Assembly: GCA_964524025.1 (NCBI GenBank) | Contig: CAZGBT010000005.1 | Span: 4,554 to 58,893 of the forward strand | Reading direction: 5' to 3' | Source: an uncultured archaeon | GTDB taxonomy: Archaea; Aenigmatarchaeota; Aenigmatarchaeia; CG10238-14; EX4484-224 | Length of the DNA: 54,340 bases | In this document: piece after piece, positions 9,625 through 42,496 of the stretch | Layout of the letters: each line of letters starts with the position of its first letter | How positions within the stretch are numbered: the first letter of the stretch is position 1 | Notes under the pieces: model-generated | What the model saw: only the letters and a program-made list of their open reading frames with translations | The model's database searches: none | What the model was told of the DNA's origin: nothing | Translations under genes and position numbers: made by a program

Positions 9625-9879
9625 ATGTTGAGGAAGAATGAAGTAAATATTTTGGAGCATGAGTTAGTACCAAAACATGAAATAATTAGCGAAAAGGAGA
9701 AAGAAGAATTGTTAAAAAAATATGGAATAAAATCTTTAAGACAACTTCCGAGAATTTTAAGCTCGGATCCTGTAGTAAAAGCTATTGGAGCCAAAGTTGG
9801 TGATATAATAAAAATAACTAGGAAGAGTCCTACAGCTGGTGAGGCAGTTTATTATAGAATTGTTGTAAGAGGAGAATGA
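9625..9879 (+). CDS. rpoH: RNA polymerase subunit H (Rpo5)
   Basis: HELVPKH...LPRI..SDPV...RKSPTAG..YYR. Confidence 0.97.
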
Positions 9880-11366
9880 ACGAGTTATTCTTAACTTTAT
9901 TAGATGCATTTATCAAAGAAAGGAGTTTAGTAAAGCATCAAATAGATTCTTATAACGACTTTGTTACAAGAAGGATTCCTAAAATTTTAGAAAGTATTGG
10001 GACTATAAAACCAGAAGTTCCTGAGTTAGGTGATTTAAAAATTAAACTTGGGGAATTTAGAATTGGTAATCCATGCGTAAAAGAGGCAGATGGCTCCATA
10101 AGACCAATTCTACCTATGGAAGCTAGGATAAGGAGTCTAACCTATGCGGCCCCTATGTTTGTCGAAATGAAAGCCATATTAAATGGAATTGAAACACAAA
10201 GTGCTTTTGTCAATTTTGGAGACTTGCCAGTTATGGTAAAATCTAAAATATGTCCACTCTCAAAAATGTCAAGAGAGGAATTGATTAAAGTTGGTGAAGA
10301 TCCAGACGATCCAGGTGGTTATTTTATCATAAACGGGACCGAAAGGTTGTTAGTATTAGTAGAAGAAATTACACCTAACAAAATAATAGTAGAAAAGGTC
10401 GACTCTCAGACTGTTTCGGAAATTGCAAGAATACATTCGGAAAAGGATGGTTACGTACAAAAACATCTTTTAGAAAGAAGAAAAAATGGAATAATTACTG
10501 TAACTTTTGCCAATATACCGAGAATCCCCATAGCAATCTTAATTAAAGCCCTTGGGTTAGAAAGCGATAGAGAAATTTTAGAAGCCGTTTCGCTAGATAA
10601 AGAAGTTCAAGAGGAATTTTTAGTAAACTTGTACGAAGCTGGAGTTGCTACAGCAGAAGAAGCTTTTGAAGCTTTGGGGAAGTATTTTAAAATACCGCAA
10701 AAGAGAAGAAGGATGGAAAGAGTAAGAAGATTGTTAGATAGATATCTTTTACCACATTTGGGACAAAAACCAACTAATAGGCTTGAAAAGGCGATTTATT
10801 TAGCAAAAGCTGCAGAAAAACTAATTAAACTCCATCTTGGTAAAATAGAAGAAGACGATGTAGACCACTATTCAAATAAAAGGTTGAGACTAGCTGGTGA
10901 TTTGTTAGAATTACTCTTAAGAGCTATCTTACTAGGAAAATGGGGGCTTATAACAAGAATAACTTATAACTATCAAAAATTAACAAAAAGAGGCAGAATG
11001 CCACCACTCCAAGCAGTTGTAGAATCAAACGTACTTACTAATCAAATAATTTCAGCCATGGCTATTGGAACATGGGTTGGAGGGAGGACAGGAGTTAGCC
11101 AAAGATTAGAAAGAGGGAGTTTTGTCAAAACGATTTCTCACATGAGAAACGTTTTATCTCCTTTGACATCAACTCAGGAGCATTTTGAAGCGAGAGAACT
11201 TCATCCAACTCATTGGGGAAAGTTGTGTCCAAGCGAAACGCCTGAAGGTGCTACGATAGGTCTAAGAAAATACCTAGCTGTAATGGCAGAAGTAACTTAT
11301 GGAATAAGCGATGCTGAAAGGAAAAAGGTCGAAGGAATAATAAATCAATTCATAGTTAGAAGGTGA
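9876..11366 (+). CDS. rpoB2: RNA polymerase subunit B'' (Rpo2N)
   Basis: [34 protein letters not shown]. Confidence 0.96.
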
Positions 11367-14300: not shown

Positions 14301-15660
14301 CGTTGGTTATATAGTTGAAAGGCATTTGCAAAATGGTGATATAGTTCTTTTCAATAGACAACCAAGCCTGCATAGAATGAGCATGATGGCACATCGCGCG
14401 AGAATTATGCCATTTAAGACATTTAGACTCCATCTCTGTGTTTGTCCTCCTTATAATGCTGATTTCGATGGAGACGAAATGAATTTGCATGTACCGCAAA
14501 CGGATGAAGCGAGAGCTGAGGCAGAAATGCTTATGATAGTTCATAAGCATATAAGAAGCCCAAGATTTTCTGGTCCAATCATCGGACTAATAAGAGATTA
14601 TATAGCTGCTCTTTACCTTTTAACCAAAGATGAAACAAAGCTTGATAGAAAGAATTTCGTGAGACTTATTAGGTTTGTAGACAAAGAAATAGAAATACCA
14701 AAGAAAAAAGTAATGAGCGGTAAGGAAATTTTCTCTTTATTTTTACCGAAAGATTTTTCAATAGAATATAGGAATAAAAGTGGTGAACTTGTTGTCATAA
14801 AAAGTGGTAAACTAATAAAAGGTGTTATAGACAAAGCAGGCGTAGGAGCTGAAAGTGGGAAAATATTAGATAAATTGGAAAAAGAATACGGACCTAAGGT
14901 TGTATGTGATTTTATGTCCAAAATTTCGAGGCTTTCTATTTATTTTTTGACGCTTTACGGTTTTTCCATTAGTATTTCAGACCAAGATTTGCCTATAGAA
15001 GCAAGAAAAGCAATCGATAGTATAATAAAGAAAACTGAAAGAGAAGTTAACAAATTAATAGAAGAATTTGAAAGAGGCGAACTAAAAGTATTAGCCGGTA
15101 GATCCCCAAAAGAAAGTTTAGAGCATGCCATCAAGATTGTATTAAGGAATTGTTTAAATGAAGCACAAAAGATACTAGTAAAATTCATGAAAGAGAATCC
15201 AACCCTCATAATGGCAAAAAGTGGGGCTAGAGGTGATATAGTAAATATTTTACAAACAGCGGCATTAGTTGGTCAAGAAATGATAATGGGTGAAAGAATA
15301 GAAAGAGGATATTATCACAGAACGTTTCCTCATTTTAAGATAGATGATATGAGCCTAGAATCAAAAGGTTTTGTTAGACATGGCTTTAAAGATGGGCTTA
15401 CACCATTTGAATTTTTCTTCGACGCCATGAATTCAAGAGAATCTTTGATGGACAAATCGCTTAAAACAAGACATTCTGGTTATATGGAAAGAAGACTAGT
15501 AGGCGCTTTAGAAGATTTAAAAGTAGAATATGATGGTACTGTTAGAGATGCTTCTAAAAGGATTATCCAATTTTTAGCTGGAGAAGATGGATTAGATCCT
15601 TCTAAAATAAGAAGAGGTGGTATAAATGTCAGAGAGATCGCAGCTAGATTATTTGGGTAA
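11371..15660 (+). CDS. rpoB1-rpoA1: Fused RNA polymerase subunits B' (Rpo2C) and A' (Rpo1N)
   Basis: aa 1 to ~599 carry [12 protein letters not shown] and GGLRLGEME; aa ~600-1429 carry [18 protein letters not shown] and [10 protein letters not shown]; no stop between them. Confidence 0.93.
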
Positions 15661-18520: not shown

Positions 18521-21500
18521 ATGAAAAAGTCAATGATAGAAAGGATCAAGGAAGTTATGAAACATCCAGAAAGAATTAGAAACGTCGCTACAAGTTCACA
18601 TGTACACCATGGAAAATGTGTAGATCCCGATTCCCTTATTTTTACTCTAGAAAAAGTAATAAAAGCTAAGGAATTGTTTGAATTGGCAAAAAGATATGGA
18701 AAGCCAATTAAGAAAACAAGAGAAGAAGAAATTTATGAAATTTCCAACCTTAACCTGCACACTCTTTCGGTTTCAAATAATGGAATTGAAATAAGAAAAA
18801 TCGTCTATGCTTGGAAACTCTTCAACGAAGATCCGCTAATAGAGGTACAACTATTGGATGGGAGGAAGGTTAAGGTAACTCCTATGCATAAGTTTATTTG
18901 CTTTAAAAATGGAAGATTTTGCGAAATAGAAGCAAAAGATTTAAAGATAGGAGACAGGGTTTTGGCCCCAAGAAAAATATTAACCAAAGAAATGAGTTTA
19001 GATGATATTAAAAGACTTTTCCTAGAAATTTTAAGCAAAGACTATGGATTTTTAGTTTACTTAGAGCCAAATTTTGGAAAGGAGTTGCATAAAAAAATAA
19101 TTCAAAATGGTAGGAAACAAATTTGGAGGACGATTGGTTCGAAGCTTAAATTTTTATCGTTTTACCACGGGGTTTGGAGGGGGAGATATAGGCTTAGGGA
19201 TTATGTTAGGCTGCTCGAAATATTTGGTTATGATAAGGCTTTTGGATACGAAAAAATTGAAAAGATTAGTTATAGAAAGGGTCTAAAAAGATTTGGAAGC
19301 AGAACTTCTAATAAGTTAAAGATTCCAAAAACCTGGCAAGAATTTTTAGAGTTATTTTATTTAGTTGGAGCATTATTTGGTGATGGTAGTGTAAACCTAA
19401 CCTTTGACAACGAAAATGATCTATTGCTTAATAGGGTTTCCGAAATTTGTAAGAACGTGTTCAATATTGATTGTACTCTCAAAAAGTATAAAGAAAGATG
19501 CAAAAGGCTTTACCTAAACGGCGGCTTAACTCTTAAGAAAATCTTCCAACATCTTTTCCTTTACAAGAATAAAGAAAAATCAAGAAATTTAGACTTACCA
19601 AATTATTTCTTCAACTTACCATTGTCTATTGTTTCTATGTTTCTAAAGGGTTATTATGATACCGATGGCTATGTTCATCAACAAGTCTGTTTAACTTCTG
19701 CTAGCAAGGAAATCATAAGAAAGCTTCAGCTCTTATTGTTAAGGTTCGGAATTTTTTCGTACATAAGAGAGAAGAATGGTTATTATTATCTGAAAATTTC
19801 AGGAAAGACGCACTTAAATTCTTTCGAGAAGAACATAAGTTTTTCGATTCCTTATAAAAACAAGAAGCTTCTTATGTTAGTATTAAATGCTTCTTATTCG
19901 AAAATATATTCGAAAGCGATTGATTTGGGGTACTTTCTTGCAATCCCTGTTGCTAGTATAAAAGTTGTAGATAATGTAAGAGAAGTTTATGATTTTACAG
20001 TTGAAGGAACACACAACTTCATTGCTGATGGATTTTTTGTTCACAACACAACTCTAACTGACAATTTAATGGCAGGGGCAGGAATGATAGCAGAAGAATT
20101 AGCAGGAAAAATCATGTTTACATGGTTCGATGAGCAAGAGAGAAAAAGACAACTAACAATCTATGGAGCAAACGTATCGATGGTCCACAATTATAAAGGT
20201 AAAGATTATCTTATAAACCTTGTTGATACACCTGGGCATGTAGATTTTGGTGGTGATGTAACAAGAGCTATGAGGGCTGTTGATGGAACTATTGTTTTAG
20301 TATGTGGTGTAGAAGGAGTAATGCCACAAACAGAAACTGTTTTTAGACAAGCGTTAAGGGAGTATGTCAAACCTGTTTTATTCATAAATAAAGTTGATAG
20401 GTTAATTAAGGAATTAAAGTTAACTCCAGAGATGATGCAAAAAAGATTCGAAAAAATAATCAAAGACGTTAACGATTTAATAAAAAAGTATGCACCAAAA
20501 GAATTTAAAAACGAATGGTTAGTAAGCGTTAAAGATGGTAGTGTAGCTTTTGGGTCTGCATTTAAGAGGTGGGCAATTTCCATACCATTCATGCAAGAAA
20601 GTGGCATTACATTTAAGGAAATTATTAAACTAACGCTTGAAGGGAGAGAGGATGAACTAGCTAAATTAGCCCCCTTACATAGAGTGGTTCTTGATATGAT
20701 AATTAAGCACTTACCATCGCCTGTAGAAGCGCAGAAATATAGAGTACCAAAAATTTGGTCTGGTGATGTAAATAGCGAAATTGGAAAACAAATGATAAAT
20801 TGTGATGCAAACGGAAGGCTTGCAGCCATAGTAACAAAAGTTGTTCCAGACCCGCATGTTGGATTTGTCGCTACAGTTAGAATTTTCTCAGGTAAATTGT
20901 ATAAAGGAAAAGATGTGTTTTTGGTCTCGCTAAATAAGAAAAGAAAAATTCAACAAGTAGCTGTCTATAAAGGAATTCAAAGAATACCAGTAGAAGAAAT
21001 AGTAGCTGGTAATATAGCAGCTGTAGTGGGTATACCTGAGGCTTTTACAGGAGAGACAGTTTGTGATGCGGATTATATAATAGAACCGTTTGCTGAGATA
21101 AAGCATTTATTCGAGCCTGTTGTCACAAAATCTATTGAACCAAAAAATCCAATGGAACTTACTAAATTAGTTGAGGCTTTAAAGAAGATTGCAAAGGAAG
21201 ATATAACCTTGCAAGTTAAAATAAACCAAGAAACTGGCGAATACTTAGTTTCTGGTTTAGGCGAGTTGCATCTAGAAGCTAAAGTAGAGAATAAACTCAA
21301 AGAGATGGGAATTGATGTAATAATGTCAAAACCTATTGTTGTTTACAGAGAAACTATAACCAAAAAATCTCCAGTAATCGAAGGGAAGTCGCCAAATAAG
21401 CACAACAAACTTTACATAACTGTAGAACCACTGGAAGAAGGTGTTTATCAAGCTATGCTTAATGGAGAAATCCCAGATTGTATAGAAATAAAGAAAAAAC

Positions 21501-22144
21501 GCTTAGATTTGTTTAAGAAATTAGCCGAATGCGGGATGCCTTATGATGAAGCAAAAAACGTTAAAGTTATTCACCATAAAAACGTTTTTATAGATCTCAC
21601 AAAAGGTGTACAATTTTTGAACGAAGTCATCGAAATGATAAAAGCTGCTTTCAAAGAAATAATGGAAGAAGGTCCTCTCGCTAAAGAACCTTGTACAAAG
21701 GTTAAGGTAAAGCTTATAGATGCAGAACTTCATGAAGATCCAGTTCACAGAGGTCCAGGGCAAATAATGCCAGCAACTCGTTATGCTATAAAGAAAGCAA
21801 TGCTTTCTGCAGGTATTCAATTGCTTGAGCCAAAACAGATAATTAGGATAGATACGCCTAGCGATCTAATAGGAAACGTTATAAGGGAAGTTGAGAGGAG
21901 AAGGGGTCAGATTCTTAACATAAGCGAACATGAAGGGGCTACCGTTGTAACAGCAAAAATACCTGTTAGCGAAATTTTTGGTTTTGATGCAAGCCTAAAA
22001 TCGGCTACCAGTGGAAGAGGTTTTTACAGCTTAGTCGATATAGTTTTCGAAAGGCTTCCGCAAGACTTATTCACTAAAACTGTTTTGGAAATAAGAAGAA
22101 GGAAAGGAATGAAAGAAGAAATACCAACCCCTGAAAGTTTATAG
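18521..22144 (+). CDS. fusA: Elongation factor EF-2, intein-containing
   Basis: DTPGHVDF, NKVD, GLGELHLE and HEDPVHRG (diphthamide His retained). Confidence 0.96.
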   Translation: MKKSMIERIKEVMKHPERIRNVATSSHVHHGKCVDPDSLIFTLEKVIKAKELFELAKRYGKPIKKTREEEIYEISNLNLHTLSVSNNGIEIRKIVYAWKLFNEDPLIEVQLLDGRKVKVTPMHKFICFKNGRFCEIEAKDLKIGDRVLAPRKILTKEMSLDDIKRLFLEILSKDYGFLVYLEPNFGKELHKKIIQNGRKQIWRTIGSKLKFLSFYHGVWRGRYRLRDYVRLLEIFGYDKAFGYEKIEKISYRKGLKRFGSRTSNKLKIPKTWQEFLELFYLVGALFGDGSVNLTFDNENDLLLNRVSEICKNVFNIDCTLKKYKERCKRLYLNGGLTLKKIFQHLFLYKNKEKSRNLDLPNYFFNLPLSIVSMFLKGYYDTDGYVHQQVCLTSASKEIIRKLQLLLLRFGIFSYIREKNGYYYLKISGKTHLNSFEKNISFSIPYKNKKLLMLVLNASYSKIYSKAIDLGYFLAIPVASIKVVDNVREVYDFTVEGTHNFIADGFFVHNTTLTDNLMAGAGMIAEELAGKIMFTWFDEQERKRQLTIYGANVSMVHNYKGKDYLINLVDTPGHVDFGGDVTRAMRAVDGTIVLVCGVEGVMPQTETVFRQALREYVKPVLFINKVDRLIKELKLTPEMMQKRFEKIIKDVNDLIKKYAPKEFKNEWLVSVKDGSVAFGSAFKRWAISIPFMQESGITFKEIIKLTLEGREDELAKLAPLHRVVLDMIIKHLPSPVEAQKYRVPKIWSGDVNSEIGKQMINCDANGRLAAIVTKVVPDPHVGFVATVRIFSGKLYKGKDVFLVSLNKKRKIQQVAVYKGIQRIPVEEIVAGNIAAVVGIPEAFTGETVCDADYIIEPFAEIKHLFEPVVTKSIEPKNPMELTKLVEALKKIAKEDITLQVKINQETGEYLVSGLGELHLEAKVENKLKEMGIDVIMSKPIVVYRETITKKSPVIEGKSPNKHNKLYITVEPLEEGVYQAMLNGEIPDCIEIKKKRLDLFKKLAECGMPYDEAKNVKVIHHKNVFIDLTKGVQFLNEVIEMIKAAFKEIMEEGPLAKEPCTKVKVKLIDAELHEDPVHRGPGQIMPATRYAIKKAMLSAGIQLLEPKQIIRIDTPSDLIGNVIREVERRRGQILNISEHEGATVVTAKIPVSEIFGFDASLKSATSGRGFYSLVDIVFERLPQDLFTKTVLEIRRRKGMKEEIPTPESL
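18617..20047 (+). mobile_element. 477-aa intein with LAGLIDADG endonuclease in the EF-2 P-loop
   Basis: HGK|CVDPDS...VTPMHKF...GALFGDG...GYYDTDG...YDFTVEGTHNFIADGFFVHN|T. Confidence 0.95.
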
Positions 22145-27584: not shown

Positions 27585-28422
27585 TTTCCTCAGCTTGAGC
27601 GACCAATCCATTGCTCTTTTCTTTTAACACCGGATATTCCTTCACAATACCTTCTCTAACAAGCTCATATAGGCCGACTTTATAATTACTTACGTTTAAA
27701 ATCCATCGCTCGGTAAATGGCAATGTTTTAAATTCTTTTAATATGAAACGAAGCAAATTTCTAGCAGCTGACATTCTTATAGGTTTTTCCTTAATTAGTG
27801 AAAAAATCGTACCTGGATAAGAATCTTTAACCCACCCAAGGCCGTTTGTAACAAACACCTCCATAGCTATAGCCTCTCCTTTTTTAAACTCCCTTTCGAT
27901 ATTATTAATACAATTAGGTATTGTCGGTTCAGCGTGCTGAACATATCTTTTTAAACCATGACCGCACAGATTCCTAACTGGATTAAATCCAAAGCTTGAA
28001 ACAACTTCTTCAACTACCTTAGAGACATCACAGACTCTATTTCCTACTTTAATAACCTTTAAAGCTTCTTTTAATGCTTCTTCTGCTGCCTTAATCAATT
28101 CATGGCCTCCTTCGCCAATGCAAACAGTAAAAGCTCTATCGCAAATGTATCCCTCAACGTGCACACCTATATCGATTTTTACTAAATCTCCGTCCTTTAA
28201 TACGGTTTTTTCGTCAATTGTAGGAGTATAGTGTGCAGCTATTTCATTTATCGAAATATTTACTGGAAATGCTGGCTTAGCACCTAGCTCAATAATCTTT
28301 TTCTCTATTTTTTCGGCCAATTCTTTTATATTTATGCCTTCCTTGGCAATCCTTTTTGCAAAGGGAATTACGCGATCAGAAATCTCCATCGCTCTTTTAT
28401 AAAATTTTGCCTTATCTTCCAT
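27568..28422 (-). CDS. map: Methionine aminopeptidase type II
   Basis: AAHYTP, KIDIGVHVEGYICD, NLCGHG, AMEVF, AQAEET. Confidence 0.95.
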   Translation of the reverse strand: MEDKAKFYKRAMEISDRVIPFAKRIAKEGINIKELAEKIEKKIIELGAKPAFPVNISINEIAAHYTPTIDEKTVLKDGDLVKIDIGVHVEGYICDRAFTVCIGEGGHELIKAAEEALKEALKVIKVGNRVCDVSKVVEEVVSSFGFNPVRNLCGHGLKRYVQHAEPTIPNCINNIEREFKKGEAIAMEVFVTNGLGWVKDSYPGTIFSLIKEKPIRMSAARNLLRFILKEFKTLPFTERWILNVSNYKVGLYELVREGIVKEYPVLKEKSNGLVAQAEETILLF

Positions 28423-29233
28423 ACAAACTACCTAATTTTTTCTTTATTTCAAGGTATCTCTTAATACCACTAAGAGTAATCCCATCTTTAAGGTATATAA
28501 AAACTGGAAGGTTTGGTAAGTTTACGTCTGCATCCAATTTCCTTTTTAACGGAACGAATTTAAGGAATTCGCTTATTTCTTTCAACCTCTTTCTAACTAC
28601 AGCAGGACTTAGGTTTAGGTTTCTTGCTATTTCTCTTAAATAACAGCCTGGGTTATTTTTGATAAATTTTACTATAGCTAAAATTTCTTCTATTTCGTTA
28701 GCAAAAGAGGTCTTGCCTTCTCTTTCTTTCACTAAAGCTGCACTCTTATATTTTGCATCCTTGTATCTCCTTTGCCTTTTGGTTAACAAGTCTGGTTCTA
28801 CAAGTAAGTTCTTTATTTCGACTTCTTCTTTAAATCTCAAAAGCTTTGGAAGAGTAGGTAACGGTCTTCCTTCTGCCAAATCTATCGTTTCCAGAAAAGG
28901 CATCATTCTGAGAATGTACCTCCTTACAATTTCGGGATGTAGGTTTAGGTTTCTTGCTATTTCTCTTAAATAACAGCCTGGGTTATTTTTGATAAATTTT
29001 ACTACCTTTTCAAAATCGAAAGTGTAAAAAAATGCAGTCCTCTTATTTATCTTTACTAATCCTTTCTTTCTAGCAACATCCAAAAGTCTATCAGCAGAGA
29101 TATGTGAGAGTTTATCGAGCGCGTAATTTGTAATTTCGATGCTGAATTTCTTTCCTTTTACCACAACCTTGTCTGCCTTCCTTTCTACTATAAGGTTATC
29201 TCCAAATTTTTTCGAAAGCTCTTCTAGTTTCAT
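28412..29233 (-). CDS. Tandem winged-HTH protein
   Basis: Two copies of KFIKNNPGCYLREIARNLNL, each followed by a recognition helix and LP.LP wing. Confidence 0.8.
   Translation of the reverse strand: MKLEELSKKFGDNLIVERKADKVVVKGKKFSIEITNYALDKLSHISADRLLDVARKKGLVKINKRTAFFYTFDFEKVVKFIKNNPGCYLREIARNLNLHPEIVRRYILRMMPFLETIDLAEGRPLPTLPKLLRFKEEVEIKNLLVEPDLLTKRQRRYKDAKYKSAALVKEREGKTSFANEIEEILAIVKFIKNNPGCYLREIARNLNLSPAVVRKRLKEISEFLKFVPLKRKLDADVNLPNLPVFIYLKDGITLSGIKRYLEIKKKLGSLYGR
28610..29004. repeat. Perfect 65-bp direct repeat (28610-28674 and 28940-29004)
   Basis: Identical TAGGTTTAGGTTTCTTGCTAT...GATAAATTTTACTA, 330 bp apart. Confidence 0.95.
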
Positions 29234-29353: not shown

Positions 29354-29473
29354 ATGAAACTTACAAAGTTTATGGGAAAACTGCGCGTACCTTGCAAAAA
29401 GTGCGGATCCTTGATAGAAGTTGGACTAGAAGAGAAGTTAAGAAGATGTCCAATTTGTGGAAGTAAGTTATGA
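29354..29473 (+). CDS. 39-aa Zn-ribbon microprotein (loosely Rpo12/RpoP-like spacing)
   Basis: MKLTKFMGKLRVPCKKCGSLIEVGLEEKLRRCPICGSKL. Confidence 0.6.
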   Translation: MKLTKFMGKLRVPCKKCGSLIEVGLEEKLRRCPICGSKL

Positions 29474-30163
29474 AGCGCTTCGAAGCGCTTCAGAGCGCTC
29501 TGAAGCGCCTTTTATCCTAACCCATCCCTCGCCGTTCTTTACGAATCTTTCAATTTCATCTGTCCTTTTTGAAATCTCCGAAAGTAAAGCCCTTATACCA
29601 GAAATAGAACTATACCCTAAATTTCTAGCTAATTCTTTATAACTTATCTCTTTTTTCTCCCTAATCAACTCTAAAACTTTCTGCATACGTGGCGTCAGGG
29701 AAATTTCTTTTCTTATTTCTTCTACCTCCTTTTCTATAGCTTCACGATGGGGCTGGGCCAAATTCTGCGCAACTTCTAAAATTCTAATCAAATGGTAAGC
29801 AATTTTTTCATGAATTTTCTTGGTTGATTCATCGTGTTTTTGTAAAGCAAAAAGAATATCGTCTAATCTCTTTACGACCTCGCTTTGTGCCCACTCTTTG
29901 GTAATAATCTTTTCTTCAAGGCCTCTAACCTTTTCTTCTATCGTCAGTAAAGATTTTCCAGCGTACCCAGCAGCAAAACCTATTGAAAACGCCTCTTTCG
30001 GTTTCTCTTCCAAAACCTCCGATTCAAAGCGCTCTGAAGCGCTTCGAAGCGCTTCAGAGCGCTGTGGAGCGCTCTCTTCTTCCTTCAATTTAAACTTTTC
30101 CTCCAATACTTCAGGCTCACTTTTTCTCTTAAACAATTTTTTCAATTTAGACAGCAAAGACAC
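29468..30163 (-). CDS. Coiled-coil plus C-terminal winged-HTH protein
   Basis: LTPRMQKVLELIREKKEISYKELARNLGYSSISGIRALLSEI wHTH; helical middle region. Confidence 0.8.
   Translation of the reverse strand: MSLLSKLKKLFKRKSEPEVLEEKFKLKEEESAPQRSEALRSASERFESEVLEEKPKEAFSIGFAAGYAGKSLLTIEEKVRGLEEKIITKEWAQSEVVKRLDDILFALQKHDESTKKIHEKIAYHLIRILEVAQNLAQPHREAIEKEVEEIRKEISLTPRMQKVLELIREKKEISYKELARNLGYSSISGIRALLSEISKRTDEIERFVKNGEGWVRIKGASERSEALRSAS
29472..29511. repeat. Array of 4 tandem 10-bp palindromic units
   Basis: GAAGCGCTTC GAAGCGCTTC AGAGCGCTCT GAAGCGCCTT. Confidence 0.93.
30026..30075. repeat. Array of 5 tandem 10-bp palindromic units, including a 36-bp perfect palindrome at 30028-30063
   Basis: AAAGCGCTCT GAAGCGCTTC GAAGCGCTTC AGAGCGCTGT GGAGCGCTCT. 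Confidence 0.93.
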
Positions 30164-30175
30164 ATATTAATTTTC

Positions 30176-30196
30176 GTCACACCGTTAAAAAAACTT
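30176..30196 (-). promoter_or_regulatory. Shared promoter-proximal motif, copy 2
   Basis: Minus strand AAGTTTTTTTAACGGTGTGAC, ending 13 bp before the GTG start. Confidence 0.45.
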
Positions 30197-30597
30197 CAAA
30201 CAAACCTCAAAGAATTCTCACTCTCTTTGCAGCAGAAATCCATTCAAAACCCACACTTCCCAAACTTTAGTGGAAAAGGTCTTTACTGTTTTTGTTCAGG
30301 TAAATTACTATCAGTTAGTAAATACTTCTGCGAACAACTCTCACTTTTTAAATATATCCACTATAAAACAACTAAAAGATAAAATGTAAAATAAAATATT
30401 TTTCATAATAAACACTTTAAGTTAATTATTCACTCTAAAGTATGTAATAAGGTATATTTTTTGGAAAACACGACGAATTTAACGATTAATCGGGGTTAAA
30501 TACAATTTTCTGCTTGATTTATTATTTTTAGAACTATATTAATAAAATAATTCCCTAATTTTTTATTATTAAAAAACAAACAATTTTTTTGAGGAAA

Positions 30598-30625
30598 CTT
30601 TGAGATAAGGAATATTATCTCAAAG
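30598..30625. other. dif-like Xer recombination site
   Basis: CTTTGAGATAA-GGAATA-TTATCTCAAAG: perfect 11-bp inverted arms, 6-bp spacer, inner ATAA/TTAT as in known dif sites; lies in the largest intergenic gap of the window. Confidence 0.75.
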
Positions 30626-30892
30626 CTAACCCCAAACTTGCTTTAAGACCGATAAAACTAGGAATTTAAAAAAAATATGCTGTTTAGATTCTGGATAAGA
30701 GGTTAGCATGGAGTGTTGAAGAATGTAAAGTCACAAAGATAGCTAAAAAATAAGTCAACGGCTTTCTTGAGTTGCAACTTGAGTGGAACTTGCTATCGCC
30801 GACTCTGCGGAAAATACTAAGGTAAAAGTTGTGCAACTTTTTAAAAATCGAAAAGCCAAAGGAGTATATTCACTTTGTAATAATAAATAACT

Positions 30893-33317: not shown

Positions 33318-35525
33318 TTACTTAATGAATTCTAGTCCTAAAATCCTTTCTATTTCTTTTTTCTGTTCTTCAGTCCATTTTTTCTCTTTTCCAAAAATTT
33401 GTGGAGATTTTACACCAGTAACAACAACCAAAGTTCTTACAGTTTCTCCCAGCGATTTATCGATTTGAGCTCCCCATATTATTTTTGCATCAGGTGCTAG
33501 TCTGCTAGAAATGGTTTCTACTATTTGTTGGGCTTCTCTTATAGTTAAGTCAGGTCCTCCAGTTATATTTATAAGAGCTCCTCTTCCATTAGTTATATCA
33601 ACCGAGAGAAGAGGATTATTTAAGGCCTTTTGGACAGATTCAAAAGCCCTATTTTCGCTGTCGCTCTCTCCCATTCCAATCATAGCTAAACCACCTTCAT
33701 TCATAACAGCTCTTACATCTGCGAAATCCAGGTTTACAAGACCTGGTTTTGTAACCATTTCAGCAATACCTTTGACAGCATTTACCAAAATTTCATCGGC
33801 AATTTTGAATGCAGTTAAAAGAGAAACGTCAGGAACTATTTCCAACAGCTTATCATTAGGTATAACTATCAAAGTATCAACTGCGTCTTCCAACAATTCT
33901 AAACCCCATCTCGCATTTTCCATTCTTTTCTTACCTTCCATGGAAAAAGGCAAAGTAACGATGGCTACTGTTAAAGCTCCTAACTTTTTAGCAACTTCAG
34001 CTATGACGGGTAAACTTCCTGTCCCAGTATTGTGAACAACGAATCCTTCTGCAATAAAATTATGGCTTCCTTCTACGATTATGTCGTAGACTTCTTTTTT
34101 ACCTATATATTTTACGGATTTAATCCTAGCAAAACCGAAATACTTGAAGAATTCGGCATTTGTTGGGCCCCTATATCCATAAAGGAATCCTAGTCCTCTT
34201 CTCTTTGCTTTTTTGTTTAGATTCTCATCGAGCTGGTAAACTCTGTAAATCCTGAGTGACCACGTGTCGAAGAACCTGGCCTTTTTTGAATTTGGTGGTT
34301 TAATTTTTCTTCTCCTATGCAAAACGTTTCCTGTTCTTAAACCTATACTATCACAAAGCACTTTTAGCTGCCTTATTAATTTCTCACTAGCCATTTCAAA
34401 CCTAAGCTCTACTTTCTCCTTATTTCCCTTCTTAACTCTATAATAACTTCCATCAGCATCAGCCAAACCTAGGATAAATGCTTTTTTCTGGGATTCGGGT
34501 AAACTAAAAACCCAAGTTGGTATTTCTTTTTCTCTTGCTTTCTTATCAAGTCCTAACCTCTCTAATAATTCATAGGCTCTTTTAGAATTGGCATAGAACC
34601 AATTTTTCGATCTTTTAACTTTGACTTTTAGCTTTTTCTCAAGAAGCTTCCTGTAGTACTCATTTTTCTTTTCATCTTGCGATGGTGAGAAAAATACCTT
34701 CCAGCTCTTTTTCGATTTACTAATCCAACCGTCACCTAAAAGAAAGCCAAATAGCCTACAAAATTCTTCATCTGTAAAGCTTCCGTCAGGTAACTTATAA
34801 GGTCTTCCCTCGTCTGGAACCTTCCTTAATATAACAACTAAATCTCCTTCTTTTAGATCTCTAGCCTCTACCCATTCTAATGCAAATTTAGAGAAACGAC
34901 CGTTACTTAAATTGTTAAGTTTAACCACTTTTAAGAATGGATGATCAAAAGATGCGTATAGCGTTCTGTTATTAGTTTTTACTTCGTAAACAGGTTTTAT
35001 TCCAGTTTTCACAGAAGCGAGAACTCTCTTCTTAATCAGTCTGCCATCATTATCTATACAATACACCATACTACCAGGTTTTATCGAATCTATCCTTACA
35101 GGACCCTCAGGATTCGTTAAAATTAATGAATCTCCGACAAGGCATCCTCCGCCGAGGCCTGCAGTTAAAAATACCATATCAGCCCCTTGTAATGCTTTCT
35201 TTATTTCTTCCTTACTTTCCTTGGCAGCCTCCATTCCTAGTTGAGGGTCTGCACCAGCACCTAAACCTCCGGTCAACTCTCTTCCTATAAGGATTTTTTT
35301 ATCTGCATCTGTGTACAGCAAATCTTGGGCGTCTGTGTTGATGGCAATAGTTTCTGCACCAACTATACCAACTTGCATTAATCTAGTAATTGTATTATTG
35401 CCAGCACCCCCTGCGCCTACAACTTTTATCTGAGTTTTCCTTCTTTCAAGAATTTCTCTTAATTCTTCATCTATATCCTTAGTTTTTGATTCAAAAGTGC
35501 TGCTTACAAGGTGCTTTATTCCCAT
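33318..35525 (-). CDS. ftsZ: Cell division protein FtsZ (FtsZ1-type context), intein-containing
   Basis: [18 protein letters not shown]|intein|TGTG, NLDFADV. Confidence 0.96.
34029..35144 (-). mobile_element. 372-aa intein with LAGLIDADG endonuclease in the FtsZ signature motif
   Basis: GGG|CLVGDS...ASFDHPF...GFLLGDG...GLADADG...[20 protein letters not shown]|TGTG. Confidence 0.95.
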
Positions 35526-41242: not shown

Positions 41243-41314
41243 TGGACCGGCCGGGATTCGAACCCGGAGCCTCCCGGTTGCAAGCCGGGCGTTCTACCAT
41301 TGAACTACCGGCCC
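41243..41314 (-). tRNA. tRNA-Ala(TGC)
   Basis: G3:U70 acceptor pair; CCCGG-CT-TGC-AA-CCGGG. Confidence 0.96.
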
Positions 41315-42342
41315 TTGTTTCCTCTATAAATCCTTAGTTTCATAACTTTTTCTAAATTTTCACAAGCAGGTCTTACATGGCACCCTTTACAAACTCTTCT
41401 CCTAAAATTTGGAAGTTTAGACTTAGGCGGTACTCTTTGCGATCTGTAAGTTTCTTCAATTTTTCTTTTTAAATTCAAGAATTCCTTTTTCATTCGTTCC
41501 GTAATTTCGACCTTAACAAGTATTTTTGAGCCATAATAGACTAGCACACATTCTGAAACTTCTCTTCTGAAAAAATTTTCGACAAGCAAAGCTTCTCCTA
41601 TACTCTGCAAAAGATGCTCCTTTTTAATATCCTTACCTAACTTTCCAGCTTTTATGTCTATGGTTACTATGCTACCATCATTCCTAAAGCAGATCAAATC
41701 TGGCGTTCCATCCAACCCAATTTTAAAACTCTCCAAAAATTTTTCTGGATAAATTTCTGAAAAGTTCTCTTCGATAAAAAAACCATAAAGGCTTTTTAAA
41801 AATTCAACTAAATCGCTCTCTTTGATTTCAACAGTTTTACCTTCAAATTTTTTAATAGCCTCCCTTGCTGATCTTTTTAAATTTTCTTCTAGAGACAATC
41901 TCTTAAGTCTACTTACGAATAGCCTAACAGCAAGATGAATCACTTCACCATCCCAGACCTTTCCTTTCTCCTCTTTAAACTGCTTCGACAAAACTATTTT
42001 TTCTAGCCATAATCTTCGAGGACATTGAAAAAATTTCGATACCTCAAGCGGTGTGACAAAAATCTTTTTAATCCTAGCGATCCTTCTTTTCACAATTTCC
42101 TTAACTTTCACCAAATCTCCTTCTTCAAGTTTTAATATCCTAACTTTACCTCTTTTTCCTTCTATCTTTCCTAATTTTTTCAAACAATCTAAAATTATGA
42201 AAAAAAGATCAGAATTCGGAACGTTTTTAACAAAAATTTCGTGCAAAAGCTTTCTTATTTCAACCTCTTTCTCGCTAAACCTTTTAATTATCCTCAAAAC
42301 GTTTACAATTTCCTTACTCCTATCTCCAACTTCCCATCTCAC
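41305..42342 (-). CDS. Solo Cas4-like PD-(D/E)xK nuclease with 4-Cys Fe-S motif
   Basis: FQCPRRLW..G..IH..GTPDL..DIK..Q..CKGCHVRPAC. Start moved to GTG 42342 because L24e occupies 42347-42496. Confidence 0.8.
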   Translation of the reverse strand: MRWEVGDRSKEIVNVLRIIKRFSEKEVEIRKLLHEIFVKNVPNSDLFFIILDCLKKLGKIEGKRGKVRILKLEEGDLVKVKEIVKRRIARIKKIFVTPLEVSKFFQCPRRLWLEKIVLSKQFKEEKGKVWDGEVIHLAVRLFVSRLKRLSLEENLKRSAREAIKKFEGKTVEIKESDLVEFLKSLYGFFIEENFSEIYPEKFLESFKIGLDGTPDLICFRNDGSIVTIDIKAGKLGKDIKKEHLLQSIGEALLVENFFRREVSECVLVYYGSKILVKVEITERMKKEFLNLKRKIEETYRSQRVPPKSKLPNFRRRVCKGCHVRPACENLEKVMKLRIYRGNKGR

Positions 42343-42346
42343 GCAA

Positions 42347-42496
42347 TCAACTTCTAGCCCAGTAAGGCTTTTTCTTCTTCCTCCAGAAATATCTTTCGCA
42401 TTTCTTTGAGCAAAAATAATAGATTGAGCCATCTAGCTTAACAAACATCTTTCCCTTTCCCTTAGGTATTTCTTGTCCACAAAAGGAACACTTCAT
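42347..42496 (-). CDS. rpl24e: Ribosomal protein L24e
   Basis: Manual translation MKCSFCGQEIPKGKGKMFVKLDGSIYYFCSKKC; L7Ae-S28e-L24e synteny. Confidence 0.95.
   Translation of the reverse strand: MKCSFCGQEIPKGKGKMFVKLDGSIYYFCSKKCERYFWRKKKKPYWARS

What the first reader, a model, noticed from the sequence alone, without database searches (positions are those of the whole stretch)
29471..30075. Two arrays of 10-bp palindromes in helical phase embedded in a wHTH coding sequence
Nine AGCGC(T)-centred units at an exact 10-bp period (4 at 29472-29511, 5 at 30026-30075) in an AT-rich genome. They include a 36-bp perfect palindrome and a 29-bp sequence shared by both arrays. A period of 10 is not a multiple of 3, and both strands translate to EALRSASER, so the pattern appears to be driven by DNA rather than protein. 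One unit per helical turn suits cooperative binding on one face of the DNA; two arrays about 550 bp apart could loop or extrude as cruciforms. The N-terminal array is flanked by a duplicated EVLEEK peptide.
Basis: partly seen in the sequence, partly recalled or inferred. Interest (0 to 1): 0.78.

Follow-up and report, generated by a model that had tools for sequence, protein, structure and literature searches.

The report
Gene carrying its own binding-site arrays
A small archaeal DNA-binding protein gene has rows of short repeats, spaced one per DNA turn, written into both ends of its own coding sequence; relatives keep such rows with different repeat sequences, so they look like docking sites for the protein the gene encodes.

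Summary
Nine 10-bp units sit at 29472-29511 and 30026-30075, at the 3' and 5' ends of a minus-strand gene (29468-30163, 231 aa).

The protein is predicted to have an N-terminal cationic amphipathic helix, a linker, a dimeric helical core and a C-terminal winged helix.

The family is confined to one order of small-genome archaea (48 of 301 class genomes, all in that order). I examined 56 loci.
- 41 of 56 repeat the 5'-array words again in the distal gene or within 130 nt past the stop.
- Unit spacing peaks at 10 bp, also in 17 held-out loci.
- Units are read in all three frames.
- Synonymous sites are frozen in the arrays (88% same codon against 56% in the core).
- Each lineage's unit occurs almost only in this gene within its genome.
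- Unit sequence changes between lineages (AGCGCT, ATCGAT, CGATACGAAT, CAATCA and others) along with the protein's recognition helix. The conserved neighbouring wHTH keeps a constant helix.

Best reading: the arrays are DNA sites for the gene's own dimeric product, forming one genome-unique nucleoprotein landmark, possibly tethered to the membrane. Binding and function are not shown. I rate it a new variant of centromere- or operator-like repeat arrays.

The parts
29468..30163 (-). Focal gene, 231 aa, GTG start. Predicted layout: N-terminal amphipathic helix, low-complexity linker, helical dimerisation core, C-terminal winged helix, short tail.
   Evidence: ORF. AF2 model (pLDDT 78.6). Orthologues in 40 of 61 relatives and 48 of 301 class genomes. 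No Pfam or NCBIfam family above cut-off.
30026..30075 (.). 5' array (array B): five 10-bp units with an AGCGCT core, holding the 36-bp perfect palindrome 30028-30063. It encodes linker residues of about 30-46 (SAPQRSEALRSASERF).
   Evidence: Logan contigs of X2 and X3 hold it.
29472..29511 (.). 3' array (array A): four 10-bp units, the last one degenerate. It encodes the C-terminal tail GASERSEALRSAS and ends one base from the stop codon. It overlaps the stop codon of the convergent 39-aa ORF.
30125..30160 (-). Codons 2-13, SLLSKLKKLFKR: a cationic amphipathic helix and putative membrane-targeting or partner-binding peptide.
   Evidence: hydrophobic moment 0.73, net charge +5, and no other 12-mer of the protein is as amphipathic. 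All 39 orthologues scored have a positive net charge (median moment 0.68, median charge +3). Modelled as a helix at residues 3-12.
29705..30001 (-). Helical core (residues 55-153): long helical hairpin plus a third helix, forming the predicted homodimer interface.
   Evidence: pLDDT 88.3. Only generic coiled-coil matches, Z up to 6.6. Homodimer model score 0.48 against best control 0.00.
29513..29692 (-). Winged helix-turn-helix domain (residues 158-217). The recognition helix starts at SISGIRALLSE.
   Evidence: VIA-align Z 9.0-9.6 to SelB, MarR, SmtB-type and other winged helices. Foldseek E about 1e-2 to MarR, MecI and AspA. HTH_24 E 3e-4, below cut-off. Helix table.
28412..29233 (-). Downstream partner gene: 273-aa protein made of two copies of a small wHTH module. 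That module is found as an 87-109 aa protein beside the focal gene in most relatives.
   Evidence: HTH_24 E 5.6e-9. A partner was found in 27 of 39 loci, and its recognition helix is nearly constant.
29354..29473 (+). Convergent 39-aa CxxC...CxxC zinc-ribbon ORF whose TGA stop lies inside array A. It is uncertain whether this is a real gene.
   Evidence: Read. Only weak zinc-ribbon Pfam hits, all below cut-off.
30164..30892 (.). 729-bp non-coding stretch upstream of the focal gene, with a very AT-rich block (16-23% GC in 100-bp bins). A comparable 12-20% GC block lies upstream in most of the 18 orthologous loci that have upstream sequence.
   Evidence: No Rfam match at E up to 1. No direct repeats.

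Best explanation
The two arrays are cis-acting DNA sites written into, and in relatives just beyond, the coding sequence of a lineage-specific DNA-binding protein. That protein is most likely what binds them.

The proposed mechanism runs as follows. The protein dimerises through its helical core and presents two winged helices to short, mostly dyad-symmetric units set one per helical turn. Several dimers can therefore load side by side on one face of each array. The 5' array (+88 to +137 from the start) and the 3' array (the last 40 nt) then bracket about 510 bp of gene body and could be bridged. Because the unit clusters occur nowhere else in the genome, the result is a single marked locus on the chromosome. 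The conserved N-terminal cationic amphipathic helix would tie this complex to the membrane or to a partner. The most likely role is therefore a chromosome landmark or anchor (centromere-like), with repression of its own transcription as a by-product.

Shown here: nucleotide-level constraint on the arrays, their phasing, their uniqueness in the genome, change of unit sequence together with the recognition helix, and the predicted fold and dimer.

Inferred: binding by the gene's own product, bridging of the two arrays, membrane attachment, and the cellular role.

My rough odds: DNA-level selected element 0.95; protein-binding arrays 0.7; the binder is the gene's own product 0.55; anchoring or segregation role 0.25-0.3.
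For: (1) The constraint is on DNA, not protein.
- The core A[GT]CG[AC]T is read in all three frames (72, 45 and 91 sites in frames 0, 1 and 2).
- Words repeated in the 5' array recur within 130 nt past the stop in 17 of 55 loci. They recur in the last 100 nt of the CDS in 30 of 55, against 4 of 53 in the 260 nt upstream (38.5, 14.7 and 0.29 hits per kb).
- Among identical aligned residues, the same codon is kept in 288 of 327 cases (0.88) in the array zone against 864 of 1544 (0.56) in the core. The array zone exceeds the core in 14 of 14 pairs.

(2) Phasing.
- Neighbour spacing of core sites in the first 20 loci: 10 bp x80, 11 x21, 9 x17, 20-22 x18, 30-32 x6, 40-42 x7.
- In 17 held-out loci, with the motif fixed beforehand: 10 x36, 11 x14, 9 x6. 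Site density was 6.9 per kb in the gene against 0.88 per kb outside.

(3) Uniqueness in each genome.
- 7 of 15 RRAGCGCTYY sites in G000 lie in this gene.
- AAGCGCTT: 10 of 11 in G001, 7 of 12 in G060, 6 of 30 in G048, 6 of 19 in G009, all clustered only at the focal locus.
- CGATACGWAT: all 10, 10 and 9 matches (both strands counted) in G020, G029 and G023.
- AATCAATCAATCA: 2 of 2, 3 of 3, 10 of 10 and 3 of 3 in G021, G045, G015 and G033.

(4) Matching specificity.
- The start of the recognition helix follows the unit type. AGCGCT goes with S-[IVT]-S-[AGS]-[LI]-R. ATCGAT or CGATAC goes with an Asp (T-D-G-LRG in one family, I-S-D-LRS in another). CAATCA goes with [TS]-E-x-x-LRG, and GCTTAAGC with S-x-S-Y-LRA.
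- One genome (G003) has two paralogues, each with its own unit and its own helix.
- One genus (g12) holds five unit types with five different helices.
- The syntenic partner wHTH keeps LHHKTVSRLI across unit types.
- Monophyly of the ATCGAT-core loci is marginally rejected (AU p 0.029).

(5) Protein.
- Winged-helix fold, Z 9.0-9.6.
- Symmetric homodimer model: score 0.48, best of 3 controls 0.00. That mark was reached by 20 of 30 proteins solved as pairs of one chain and by 1 of 23 solved as single chains. The three runs agree in at least 70% of contacts, and partner pLDDT is at least 73 (my own alignment was used, so the counts hold only roughly).
- The N-terminal amphipathic cationic helix is conserved in all 39 proteins scored.

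(6) Precedents read in papers.
- Plasmid centromeres are tandem repeats bound cooperatively, and they also act as operators. R1 parC has two sets of five 11-bp iterons with about one ParR dimer per iteron (PMC2241845, passages). tubC and TubR are described in PMC7762940 (passages).
- The archaeal wHTH protein AspA binds a palindrome beside its own gene and spreads (PMC5120986, passages).
- DNA-binding domain plus coiled coil plus amphipathic helix proteins bridge DNA to the membrane: RicO (bioRxiv 10.64898/2026.03.06.710092, abstract and section 8) and TubY (PMC7762940).
- Cis sites can sit inside coding sequence in repABC replicons (PMC9040568, passages).
Against: - No binding was measured, and no tool here models protein-DNA recognition.
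- The link between helix and unit type is confounded by shared descent. The tree backbone is unresolved (14 of 36 inner branches open). Monophyly of the CAATCA loci is not rejected (p 0.055). Both groups were named after seeing the tree.
- The two-array layout is not universal. 15 of 56 loci show fewer than 2 recurrences of 5'-array words in the distal part of the gene. By a stricter shuffle test only 21 of 39 loci exceed all 200 shuffles. One genus (g6) has its GCTTAAGC units only mid-gene or after the stop.
- Several lineages use 4-bp microsatellite-like units with periods of 12, 16 or 19, so 10-bp phasing is common but not constant.
- A winged-helix dimer usually covers more than 10 bp. How dimers would pack on contiguous 10-bp units is therefore unclear.
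- Sites lie downstream of the start codon, an unusual place for an operator.
- No motor protein (ParA, ParM or TubZ type) was seen among the neighbours scanned.
- The family was not found in 11 of 12 genomes of family f4 of the same order, so it is not indispensable.
- Membrane binding rests on a hydrophobic-moment calculation only.
Confidence: 0.5

Rival explanations
1. The arrays are plain operator arrays. The protein, or another regulator, binds them only to throttle transcription of this gene and of the adjacent partner wHTH gene, and has no structural role on the chromosome.
For: Centromere-type repeat arrays double as operators in R1 parC and in tubC (PMC2241845 and PMC7762940, passages). 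In some orthologues units start only 13-23 nt after the start codon (L007, L008, L010, L013, L021). In tandem arrangements the 3' array lies about 200-250 nt upstream of the partner gene.
Against: A regulator whose only clustered sites lie in its own gene would have nothing else to regulate. Operators are expected over the promoter, yet the 260 nt upstream carry almost none of the array words (4 of 53 loci). This reading does not explain the conserved terminal amphipathic helix. In 19 of 27 loci the partner gene is convergent, so the 3' array is at the ends of both genes and not at a promoter.
Confidence: 0.15
2. The arrays are binding sites, but for some other protein (the partner wHTH or an unlinked factor). 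The focal gene merely hosts them.
For: The partner wHTH is syntenic in 27 of 39 loci. No experiment ties the focal protein to the units.
Against: The partner's recognition helix is almost invariant (LHHKTVSRLI and close variants) across AGCGCT, AGCGAT, ATCGAT, CAATCA and ACATCG loci, while the focal helix changes with the unit. The partner was not found in 12 of 39 loci that still have arrays (the flanks there are short, so this means not found rather than absent). The two G003 paralogues each carry different units.
Confidence: 0.12
3. The arrays are a simple-sequence contingency locus. Units of 10 or 4 bp (not multiples of 3) in the 5' coding region slip during replication and switch the gene on and off, or vary the linker length.
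For: Unit lengths are not multiples of 3, and several lineages have true tetranucleotide runs such as (CAAT)n, (TCAC)n and (AACG)n. Close relatives differ by a 30-nt in-frame block (L016 against L017 and L018) or by unit period (12 against 16; L027 against L026). Contigs often end at or just upstream of the gene (12 of 31 loci), and Logan contigs break inside array B. Both fit population heterogeneity.
Against: None of the 56 loci examined has a frameshift at an array; the one split copy, L042, which was left out of the counts, is broken mid-gene. Slippage does not explain the same unit recurring at or after the stop codon. It does not explain conservation of AAGCGCTT across families at 35-45% protein identity. 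It does not explain the 10-bp spacing of non-contiguous units at 20, 21 and 31 bp.
Confidence: 0.07
4. The locus is an iteron-type replication origin. The protein would be an initiator or origin-binding factor, the arrays its iterons, and the AT-rich block upstream the unwinding element.
For: A 100-300 bp block at 12-20% GC lies about 100-400 bp upstream in most of the 18 loci with upstream sequence (in the window it is part of a 729-bp non-coding stretch). Winged-helix initiators bind phased repeats in plasmids (recalled, not checked here). oriV can sit inside a gene in repABC replicons (PMC9040568, passage). The DNA polymerase B gene is 2 kb away.
Against: The genome has an Orc1/Cdc6 gene on another contig, where archaeal origins usually lie (general knowledge). 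The upstream stretch has no direct repeats. The units are 10-bp palindromes inside the gene, not 17-22 bp direct repeats beside the AT-rich block. The protein has one winged helix plus a coiled coil, not the two-domain Rep fold. The family was not found in most f4 genomes of the order.
Confidence: 0.08
5. The arrays act at the RNA level or through recombination. Options are hairpins or 5'-3' pairing in the mRNA, a terminator between convergent genes, or inverted and direct repeats that let the gene body invert or excise.
For: Both arrays fold strongly as single strands (-15.9 and -23.0 kcal/mol, z -4.2 and -4.9). The arms 29471-29507 and 30020-30056 are 95% complementary. Array A sits between convergent ORFs. 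Some family members carry a C-terminal extension of about 110 aa with a PD...ELK motif and weak XisH and AHJR-like hits.
Against: Non-palindromic units occur in direct orientation in L027, L029 and L036 and inverted in L020, so neither pairing nor one type of recombination is conserved. The same exact 8-mer is kept across distant genera, instead of drifting with compensating changes. The inverted gene body would not be coding, since the plus-strand ORFs cover only 29457-29642 and 29820-30170. No joints were seen in the contigs laid, though contigs are weak evidence on this point.
Confidence: 0.05

Closest known systems
Plasmid R1 parC-ParR (type II partition centromere)
   Same: Both have two separate blocks of about five short units, repeated about once per helical turn (11 bp in parC). 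In parC about one dimer binds per unit, and the complex also represses its own operon (PMC2241845, passages).
   Different: ParR is described in the literature as a ribbon-helix-helix protein (recalled), whereas this protein is a winged helix with a coiled coil. parC is intergenic, its blocks are 39 bp apart around the promoter, and its repeats are direct. Here the blocks lie inside the coding sequence about 510 bp apart and are mostly palindromic. No ParM-like gene was seen nearby. This locus is chromosomal and archaeal.
TubR-tubC with TubY (type III partition)
   Same: The centromere-binding protein is a winged helix, and the centromere is made of blocks of direct or inverted repeats. Centromere sequences are not conserved between systems. 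TubY combines an HTH, an oligomerising coiled coil and an amphipathic membrane-binding tail (PMC7762940, passages). That is the same set of parts predicted here in one protein.
   Different: No sequence relationship was detected. tubC lies upstream of the operon. The amphipathic helix here is N-terminal. The tubulin-family gene 3 kb away is an ordinary FtsZ (Tubulin plus FtsZ_C domains, with an intein) and not a TubZ.
AspA (pNOB8) and SegB (Sulfolobus) archaeal centromere-binding proteins
   Same: Both are archaeal, dimeric, site-specific binders of palindromic sites placed beside their own genes. AspA is a winged helix that spreads into a protein-DNA superhelix (PMC5120986, passages). AspA chains appear among the weak Foldseek hits (E about 2e-2).
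   Different: They use one or two sites upstream of the gene, not phased arrays within it. They work with ParA- and ParB-type partners encoded next to them, and none was found here.
DNA-membrane tethers: RicO (Staphylococcus aureus); Noc (recalled)
   Same: RicO has a sequence-specific DNA-binding domain, a coiled coil and a terminal amphipathic helix that bridge chromosome and membrane (bioRxiv 10.64898/2026.03.06.710092, abstract and section 8).
   Different: RicO has nine dispersed 18-bp sites over about 700 kb around the origin. Here there is one locus with arrays, inside the protein's own gene. The two are unrelated in sequence, and the order of domains is reversed.
Simple-sequence contingency loci of bacteria, such as (CAAT)n in Haemophilus lic genes (recalled)
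   Same: Short tandem units whose length is not a multiple of three lie in the 5' coding region. Some lineages here even use (CAAT)n.
   Different: No out-of-frame alleles were seen in 56 loci. The units recur at or after the stop codon. Non-contiguous units keep a 10-bp register.

Membership tests
[quoted passage not shown] | Three-helix bundle with a beta-hairpin wing. | tested here: met
   The AF2 model shows H158-170, H175-182, H187-200, E204-209 and E212-217, with block-mean pLDDT 93-97 over residues 161-220. VIA-align Z 9.0-9.6, rmsd 1.9-2.8 A, over 62-70 residues to SelB, Mb0332, DsrD and SmtB-type domains.
[quoted passage not shown] | Sequence match to a curated HTH family above its cut-off. 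| tested here: not met
   HTH_24 scores 20.6 bits against a cut-off of 21.9, E 3e-4. NCBIfam gives only Sul12a at E 7e-4, far below cut-off. The fold is met; membership of a named family is not.
Type II partition (ParR/parC/ParM) | Two blocks of units of about 11 bp repeated once per turn. | tested here: met
   Blocks of 4 and 5 units at a 10-bp period. The spacing peak at 10 bp holds across the family.
Type II partition (ParR/parC/ParM) | An adjacent actin-like ParM motor gene and a small ParR adaptor. | tested here: not met
   No actin-like ATPase among the window ORFs scanned or among the neighbours in 20 loci. The binder candidate is a 231-aa winged-helix protein.
Type III partition (TubR/tubC/TubZ) | A TubZ GTPase encoded with the winged-helix adaptor, and a centromere upstream of the operon. 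| tested here: not met
   The nearest tubulin-family gene (33318-35525) has Tubulin plus FtsZ_C domains. It is 10-26 kb from the focal gene in 4 other genomes. The arrays are intragenic.
Iteron-type replicon (Rep plus iterons plus AT-rich unwinding element) | Direct repeats of about 17-22 bp beside an AT-rich region, and an initiator with two winged-helix domains. | tested here: not met
   The units are 10 bp and mostly palindromic, and lie inside the gene. The protein has one winged helix plus a coiled coil. An AT-rich block does exist upstream, so the resemblance is partial.
Simple-sequence contingency locus | Alleles differing by single units, giving frameshifted (off) copies. | tested here: not met
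   0 of 56 loci examined have an array-linked frameshift; the split copy L042, left out of the counts, is broken mid-gene. The only length difference seen between close relatives is 30 nt and in frame. Populations were not sampled with raw reads, so rare variants are not excluded.
DNA-membrane tether (RicO, Noc or TubY-like, by function) | A sequence-specific DNA-binding domain, an oligomerisation region and a terminal amphipathic helix in one protein. | tested here: met
   By prediction only.
DNA-membrane tether (RicO, Noc or TubY-like, by function) | Membrane binding of the helix, and membrane-proximal localisation that depends on the DNA sites. | not testable with these tools
   This needs liposome binding assays and microscopy.

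The most novel reading that the evidence does not exclude
This is a self-encoded point centromere or anchor of a DPANN-type archaeal chromosome. The coding sequence of the gene doubles as the loading platform for its own dimeric product. That product bridges the two arrays and ties this one locus to the membrane or division site through its N-terminal helix. Protein and site specificity co-diversify quickly, as in plasmid incompatibility groups. On this reading, the two paralogues in one genome, and neighbouring lineages, would stay orthogonal.
Probability: 0.25. Interest if true: 0.9.

Novelty: new variant of a known kind. Interest (0 to 1): 0.72.

Why it matters
Nothing is known about how the tiny, mostly uncultured DPANN-type archaea position or segregate their chromosomes. 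A review of archaeal segregation lists the nature of archaeal centromeres as an open question (PMC5120986, 'Outstanding Questions' passage).

This locus offers a compact and directly testable pair: one 231-aa protein and two 40-50 bp arrays. It also comes with dozens of natural specificity variants, including two paralogues in one genome.

It is also a clear case of a dual-use coding sequence. A phased DNA signal is threaded through all three reading frames, and it is tolerated because it sits in a disordered linker and a tail.

If binding is confirmed, the family would give a set of orthogonal thermophile-derived protein-site pairs. It would also serve as a model for how DNA-binding specificity and target sites change together.

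Tried and rejected
- **Protein-level repeat.** Rejected: units are read in three frames, lie beyond stop codons, and keep their synonymous sites.
- **EVLEEK as a target-site duplication.** Rejected: only 13 of 18 nt are identical, and it is absent from the aligned orthologues.
- **Invertible coding cassette.** Rejected: the opposite strand is not open across the gene body.
- **ESCRT-III or PspA-like N-terminal domain** (suggested by the MGFFD-type N-terminus). There is no Pfam hit at E up to 0.1. The isolated core (model mf07cf6e4f768) gave only generic coiled-coil matches, Z up to 6.6. This is inconclusive and was not used.
- **Z-DNA binding** (Z-alpha domains appear among the winged-helix hits). 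Not pursued, because most units are not alternating purine-pyrimidine.
- **Restriction-site avoidance or enrichment.** AGCGCT is at expectation genome-wide.
- **Regulon.** No second cluster of units exists in G000 or in the 12 other genomes searched with their own units.
- **RNA evidence.** No RNA holder is listed among the public runs, so nothing can be said on expression.
- **Reads.** The runs are Logan contigs only, so starts, ends, rare length variants and inversions could not be assessed.
- **Rfam.** Nothing in or around the gene.
- **Mobile elements.** No tblastn hit in the plasmid collection, and no relative among viral contigs with the single-protein query. The alignment query was unusable.
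- **Nuclease-like C-terminal extension of L009.** Not found in G000 with that one query.
- **Protein atlas.** Best score 0.86, below the 0.9 level, so leads only.
- **PDB sequence search with the core profile.** Only coiled-coil noise.
- **Literature.** Four searches listed no paper on this family or on intragenic arrays in these archaea. This covers only the held library.
Full report
**What is there**

On the plus strand, 29472-29511 holds GAAGCGCTTC, GAAGCGCTTC, AGAGCGCTCT and a degenerate GAAGCGCCtt. The stretch 30026-30075 holds AAAGCGCTCT, GAAGCGCTTC, GAAGCGCTTC, AGAGCGCTGT and GGAGCGCTCT. Tandem Repeats Finder gives period 10 for both.

All 7 exact RRAGCGCTYY matches in the 54-kb window are in these arrays; shuffles gave a mean of 0.75 and a maximum of 4. 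The window's genome (G000; 869 kb, 37 contigs, 88.6% complete) has 15 such sites, 7 of them here. Bare AGCGCT is at expectation (72 seen, 75.9 expected), and there is no second cluster.

The 36-bp perfect palindrome is 30028-30063. A 29-nt stretch is shared by the arrays, and 37-nt arms are 95% complementary.

Logan contigs from three coded runs hold the arrays: X1 (possibly the source), X2 and X3. These are contigs, so they show presence but not rare variants. They break inside array B, as expected for a repeat.

**The gene**

Both arrays lie in one minus-strand ORF, 29468-30163 (231 aa, GTG start). Array B encodes residues of about 30-46 and array A encodes the last 14 residues.

AlphaFold2 with a 28-row alignment (pLDDT 78.6) gives this layout:
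- an N-terminal helix (residues 3-12);
- a disordered stretch (13-35);
- a helix at 35-50;
- a long helical hairpin and a third helix (55-153);
- a winged helix (158-217);
- a short C-terminal helix.

The winged helix is confirmed by fold (Z 9.0-9.6). No curated family is reached. The helical core alone models well (pLDDT 88.3) but matches only generic coiled coils.

A two-copy model gives a symmetric dimer through residues 72-157. The score is 0.48 against a best control of 0.00. That mark was reached by 20 of 30 proteins solved as pairs of one chain and by 1 of 23 solved as single chains. The runs agree in at least 70% of contacts and partner pLDDT is at least 73. This supports a dimer but does not show one.

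Residues 2-13 form a cationic amphipathic helix. All 39 orthologues scored have one (median hydrophobic moment 0.68, median charge +3).

**Context**

The surrounding genes are ordinary core archaeal chromosome genes: RNA polymerase subunits, ribosomal proteins, EF-2 and EF-1alpha, DNA polymerase B, methionine aminopeptidase, and an FtsZ gene 3 kb away. A relative in the same order carries the source label 'Candidatus Aenigmatarchaeota archaeon' (P0010; its sequence in the alignment matches the ORF read from locus L034).

**The family**

Relatives occur in 40 of 61 related genomes. They occur in 48 of 301 genomes sampled from the class, and every one of those is in the window's own order: f2 35 of 44, f5 10 of 11, f6 1 of 1, f4 1 of 12, and 0 in the other families. 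A profile search of 1.84 billion representatives found only 123 proteins at E up to 1e-3.

I read 56 loci:
- 20;
- 19 of the 20 fetched (L042, a gene split mid-way, was left out);
- 17 new ones kept as a hold-out.

The other loci returned repeat genomes already examined, so I did not analyse them again. L001-L004 are pattern hits that I did not use.

**The arrays are a family trait and a DNA-level one**

Every orthologue first printed has a repeat zone just after the N-terminal helix and a second one at the end of the gene or mid-gene.

*Density and spacing.* I defined a core, A[GT]CG[AC]T, after looking at the first 20 loci. Those loci hold 221 sites in the gene (11.8 per kb) against 24 in the flanks (0.5 per kb). 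Neighbour spacing is 10 bp x80, 11 x21, 9 x17, 20-22 x18, 30-32 x6 and 40-42 x7. The sites fall in frames 0, 1 and 2 at 72, 45 and 91.

Because that motif was chosen post hoc, I applied it unchanged to the 17 held-out loci. These gave 6.9 per kb against 0.88 per kb, with spacing 10 x36, 11 x14 and 9 x6. Of the 30 'outside' sites, 21 lie in two loci whose start I had mis-set.

*A motif-free test.* I took 8-mers occurring at least twice in the 5' zone and counted where they recur, on either strand.

| Zone | Loci with a hit | Hits per kb |
|---|---|---|
| Last 100 nt of the CDS | 30 of 55 | 38.5 |
| 130 nt after the stop | 17 of 55 | 14.7 |
| Mid-gene | 20 of 55 | 8.0 |
| 260 nt upstream | 4 of 53 | 0.29 |
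| 130-390 nt downstream | 8 of 55 | 1.8 |

Tallying the rows by hand, 41 of 56 loci have at least two such recurrences. A noisier version of the test passed in 21 of 39 loci.

*Synonymous sites.* Among identical aligned residues, the same codon is kept in 288 of 327 cases in the array zone against 864 of 1544 in the core. The array zone exceeds the core in 14 of 14 pairs, though some pairs share loci.

**The unit differs by lineage and is private to the gene**

Units seen:
- AAGCGCTT;
- AAGCGATT hybrids;
- AATCGATT;
- CGATACGAAT and CGATACGTAT (period 10);
- TTACATCG;
- (CAAT)n-based units of period 12, 16 or 19;
- (TCAC)n;
- CAAGCGCTTG with (AACG)n;
- GCTTAAGC, lying mid-gene or after the stop;
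- GCGATGCA;
- CAGACAGACG.

Palindromy and an exact 10-bp period are therefore common but not universal. Non-palindromic units are direct at both ends in L027, L029 and L036, and inverted in L020.

Within each genome tested, the unit clusters only at this gene. AAGCGCTT gives 10 of 11, 7 of 12, 6 of 30 and 6 of 19. CGATACGWAT gives all 10, 10 and 9 matches, both strands counted. AATCAATCAATCA gives all of 2, 3, 10 and 3.

**Who binds?**

The start of the focal protein's recognition helix follows the unit type. Genome G003 has two paralogues with different units and different helices. Genus g12 alone has five unit types with five helices.

A small wHTH gene is a conserved neighbour. It is found in 27 of 39 loci, on the same strand in 8 and convergent in 19; in the window it is a tandem double at 28412-29233. 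Its recognition helix stays LHHKTVSRLI-like across unit types, so it is a poor candidate for the specific binder.

I built a tree from core columns, leaving out the arrays and the start of the helix. It places CAATCA loci in at least three positions and ATCGAT-core loci in two. AU tests of single origins give p 0.055 and p 0.029. The groups were named after seeing the tree and the backbone is weak. I therefore treat this as suggestive, not proof of independent co-variation.

**Mechanism**

The simplest account is that the arrays are binding sites for the gene's own dimeric product, loaded one unit per turn on one face of the DNA.

They sit in the two parts of the protein that tolerate any sequence: the disordered linker and the tail. 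This explains how a compact genome can thread a DNA signal through a gene.

The only clusters in the genome are in the gene itself, so a purely regulatory role would leave the protein with nothing to regulate but itself and perhaps its neighbour. Together with the terminal amphipathic helix and the coiled coil, this points to a structural landmark: a centromere-like or membrane-anchoring complex.

Precedents come from passages I read:
- R1 parC-ParR has two sets of five 11-bp iterons, about one dimer per iteron, and also acts as an operator (PMC2241845).
- tubC-TubR, and TubY with its HTH, coiled coil and amphipathic tail (PMC7762940).
- AspA and SegB in archaea (PMC5120986).
- RicO (bioRxiv 10.64898/2026.03.06.710092, abstract and section 8).
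- Cis sites inside coding sequence in repABC replicons (PMC9040568).

Binding, bridging, membrane attachment and the cellular role are all inferences.

**Against this reading, and the rivals**

- No motor gene was seen nearby.
- 15 of 56 loci lack a clear second array.
- Some lineages have microsatellite-like units.
- The packing of winged-helix dimers on contiguous 10-bp units is unexplained.
- The family was not found in most f4 genomes.

*Contingency-locus model.* In its favour are unit lengths that are not multiples of three, a 30-nt difference between close relatives, and frequent contig ends just upstream (12 of 31 loci against 4 of 31 downstream). Against it, no array-linked frameshift occurs in any of the 56 loci, and it does not explain units at or past the stop codon.

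*Origin model.* It draws on the AT-rich block upstream. But Orc1/Cdc6 is on another contig, the upstream stretch has no repeats, and the protein is not Rep-like.

*RNA pairing, cruciforms or inversion.* These cannot be general, because unit orientation and palindromy vary between lineages.

**Novelty**

Four literature searches listed nothing on this family or on such intragenic arrays. The library is partial, and supplements were not consulted. I rate it a new variant of a known kind: phased repeat arrays with a cognate binding protein. What is unusual is that the arrays are embedded in the binder's own coding sequence and change together with it.

Noticed in passing
window 33318-35525 (-) and 18521-22144 (+): The FtsZ gene (Tubulin plus FtsZ_C domains) and the EF-2 gene each carry an intein with a LAGLIDADG domain (Intein_splicing and LAGLIDADG_3 hits). 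An intein in FtsZ seems uncommon.
   Followed up: no
window 9876-11366 (+) and 11371-15660 (+): The second ORF (1429 aa) joins Rpb2 domains 4-7 to Rpb1 domains 1-5 in one frame. RNA polymerase subunit B' therefore appears fused to A', while B'' is separate. I did not check whether this is a real fusion or a missed stop or frameshift.
   Followed up: no
window 30164-30892: A 729-bp non-coding stretch, large for this compact genome, with a 16-23% GC block. There is no Rfam hit at E up to 1, no tRNA and no direct repeats, and one 22-nt imperfect hairpin at 30587-30636. A similar AT-rich block lies upstream of most orthologues that have upstream sequence.
   Followed up: partly
window 29354-29473 (+): A 39-aa CxxC...CxxC zinc-ribbon ORF is convergent with the focal gene, and its stop codon lies inside array A. 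It has only sub-threshold zinc-ribbon hits. I did not check whether it is conserved.
   Followed up: no
window 28412-29233 (-); partner genes in L006-L038: The neighbour gene is an internal tandem duplication of a small wHTH module; the motif VKFIKNNPGCYLREIARNLNL occurs twice. The same double form occurs in L016-L018 and L024, while elsewhere the module is a single 87-109 aa protein. Its orientation relative to the focal gene flips between lineages: same strand in 8 loci, convergent in 19.
   Followed up: partly
L009, L063; proteins P0002, P0016, P0017, P0024, P0027, P0060: Some family members are 339-357 aa long. At least L009 and P0002 carry an extra C-terminal domain of about 110 aa with a PD...(I)ELK motif. 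Weak XisH and AHJR-like (Holliday-junction-resolvase-like) hits occur in P0060 only, below cut-off. No match was found in G000 with the L009 extension as the only query.
   Followed up: partly
Loci L006-L012, L017, L021, L047-L049, L058, L063: In 12 of 31 loci fetched with 1500-nt flanks, the contig ends less than 1.2 kb upstream of the gene; four end within 154 nt of or inside the 5' array. Only 4 of 31 end that close on the downstream side. This suggests the arrays or the AT-rich stretch upstream break assemblies, possibly because they vary within populations.
   Followed up: partly
Run X3, record 11, laid on window 29472-29508: A 480-nt contig at depth 34.5 carries the same 37-nt array with 2 differences but has unrelated flanks. 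Its flanks read like the start of another family member. A second organism in that sample seems to share almost the same array.
   Followed up: no
window 41305-42432 (-): A Cas4-like PD-(D/E)XK nuclease (PDDEXK_1 and Cas_Cas4 hits) sits among ribosomal and pyrimidine-biosynthesis genes. No CRISPR array was noticed in the tandem-repeat list.
   Followed up: no
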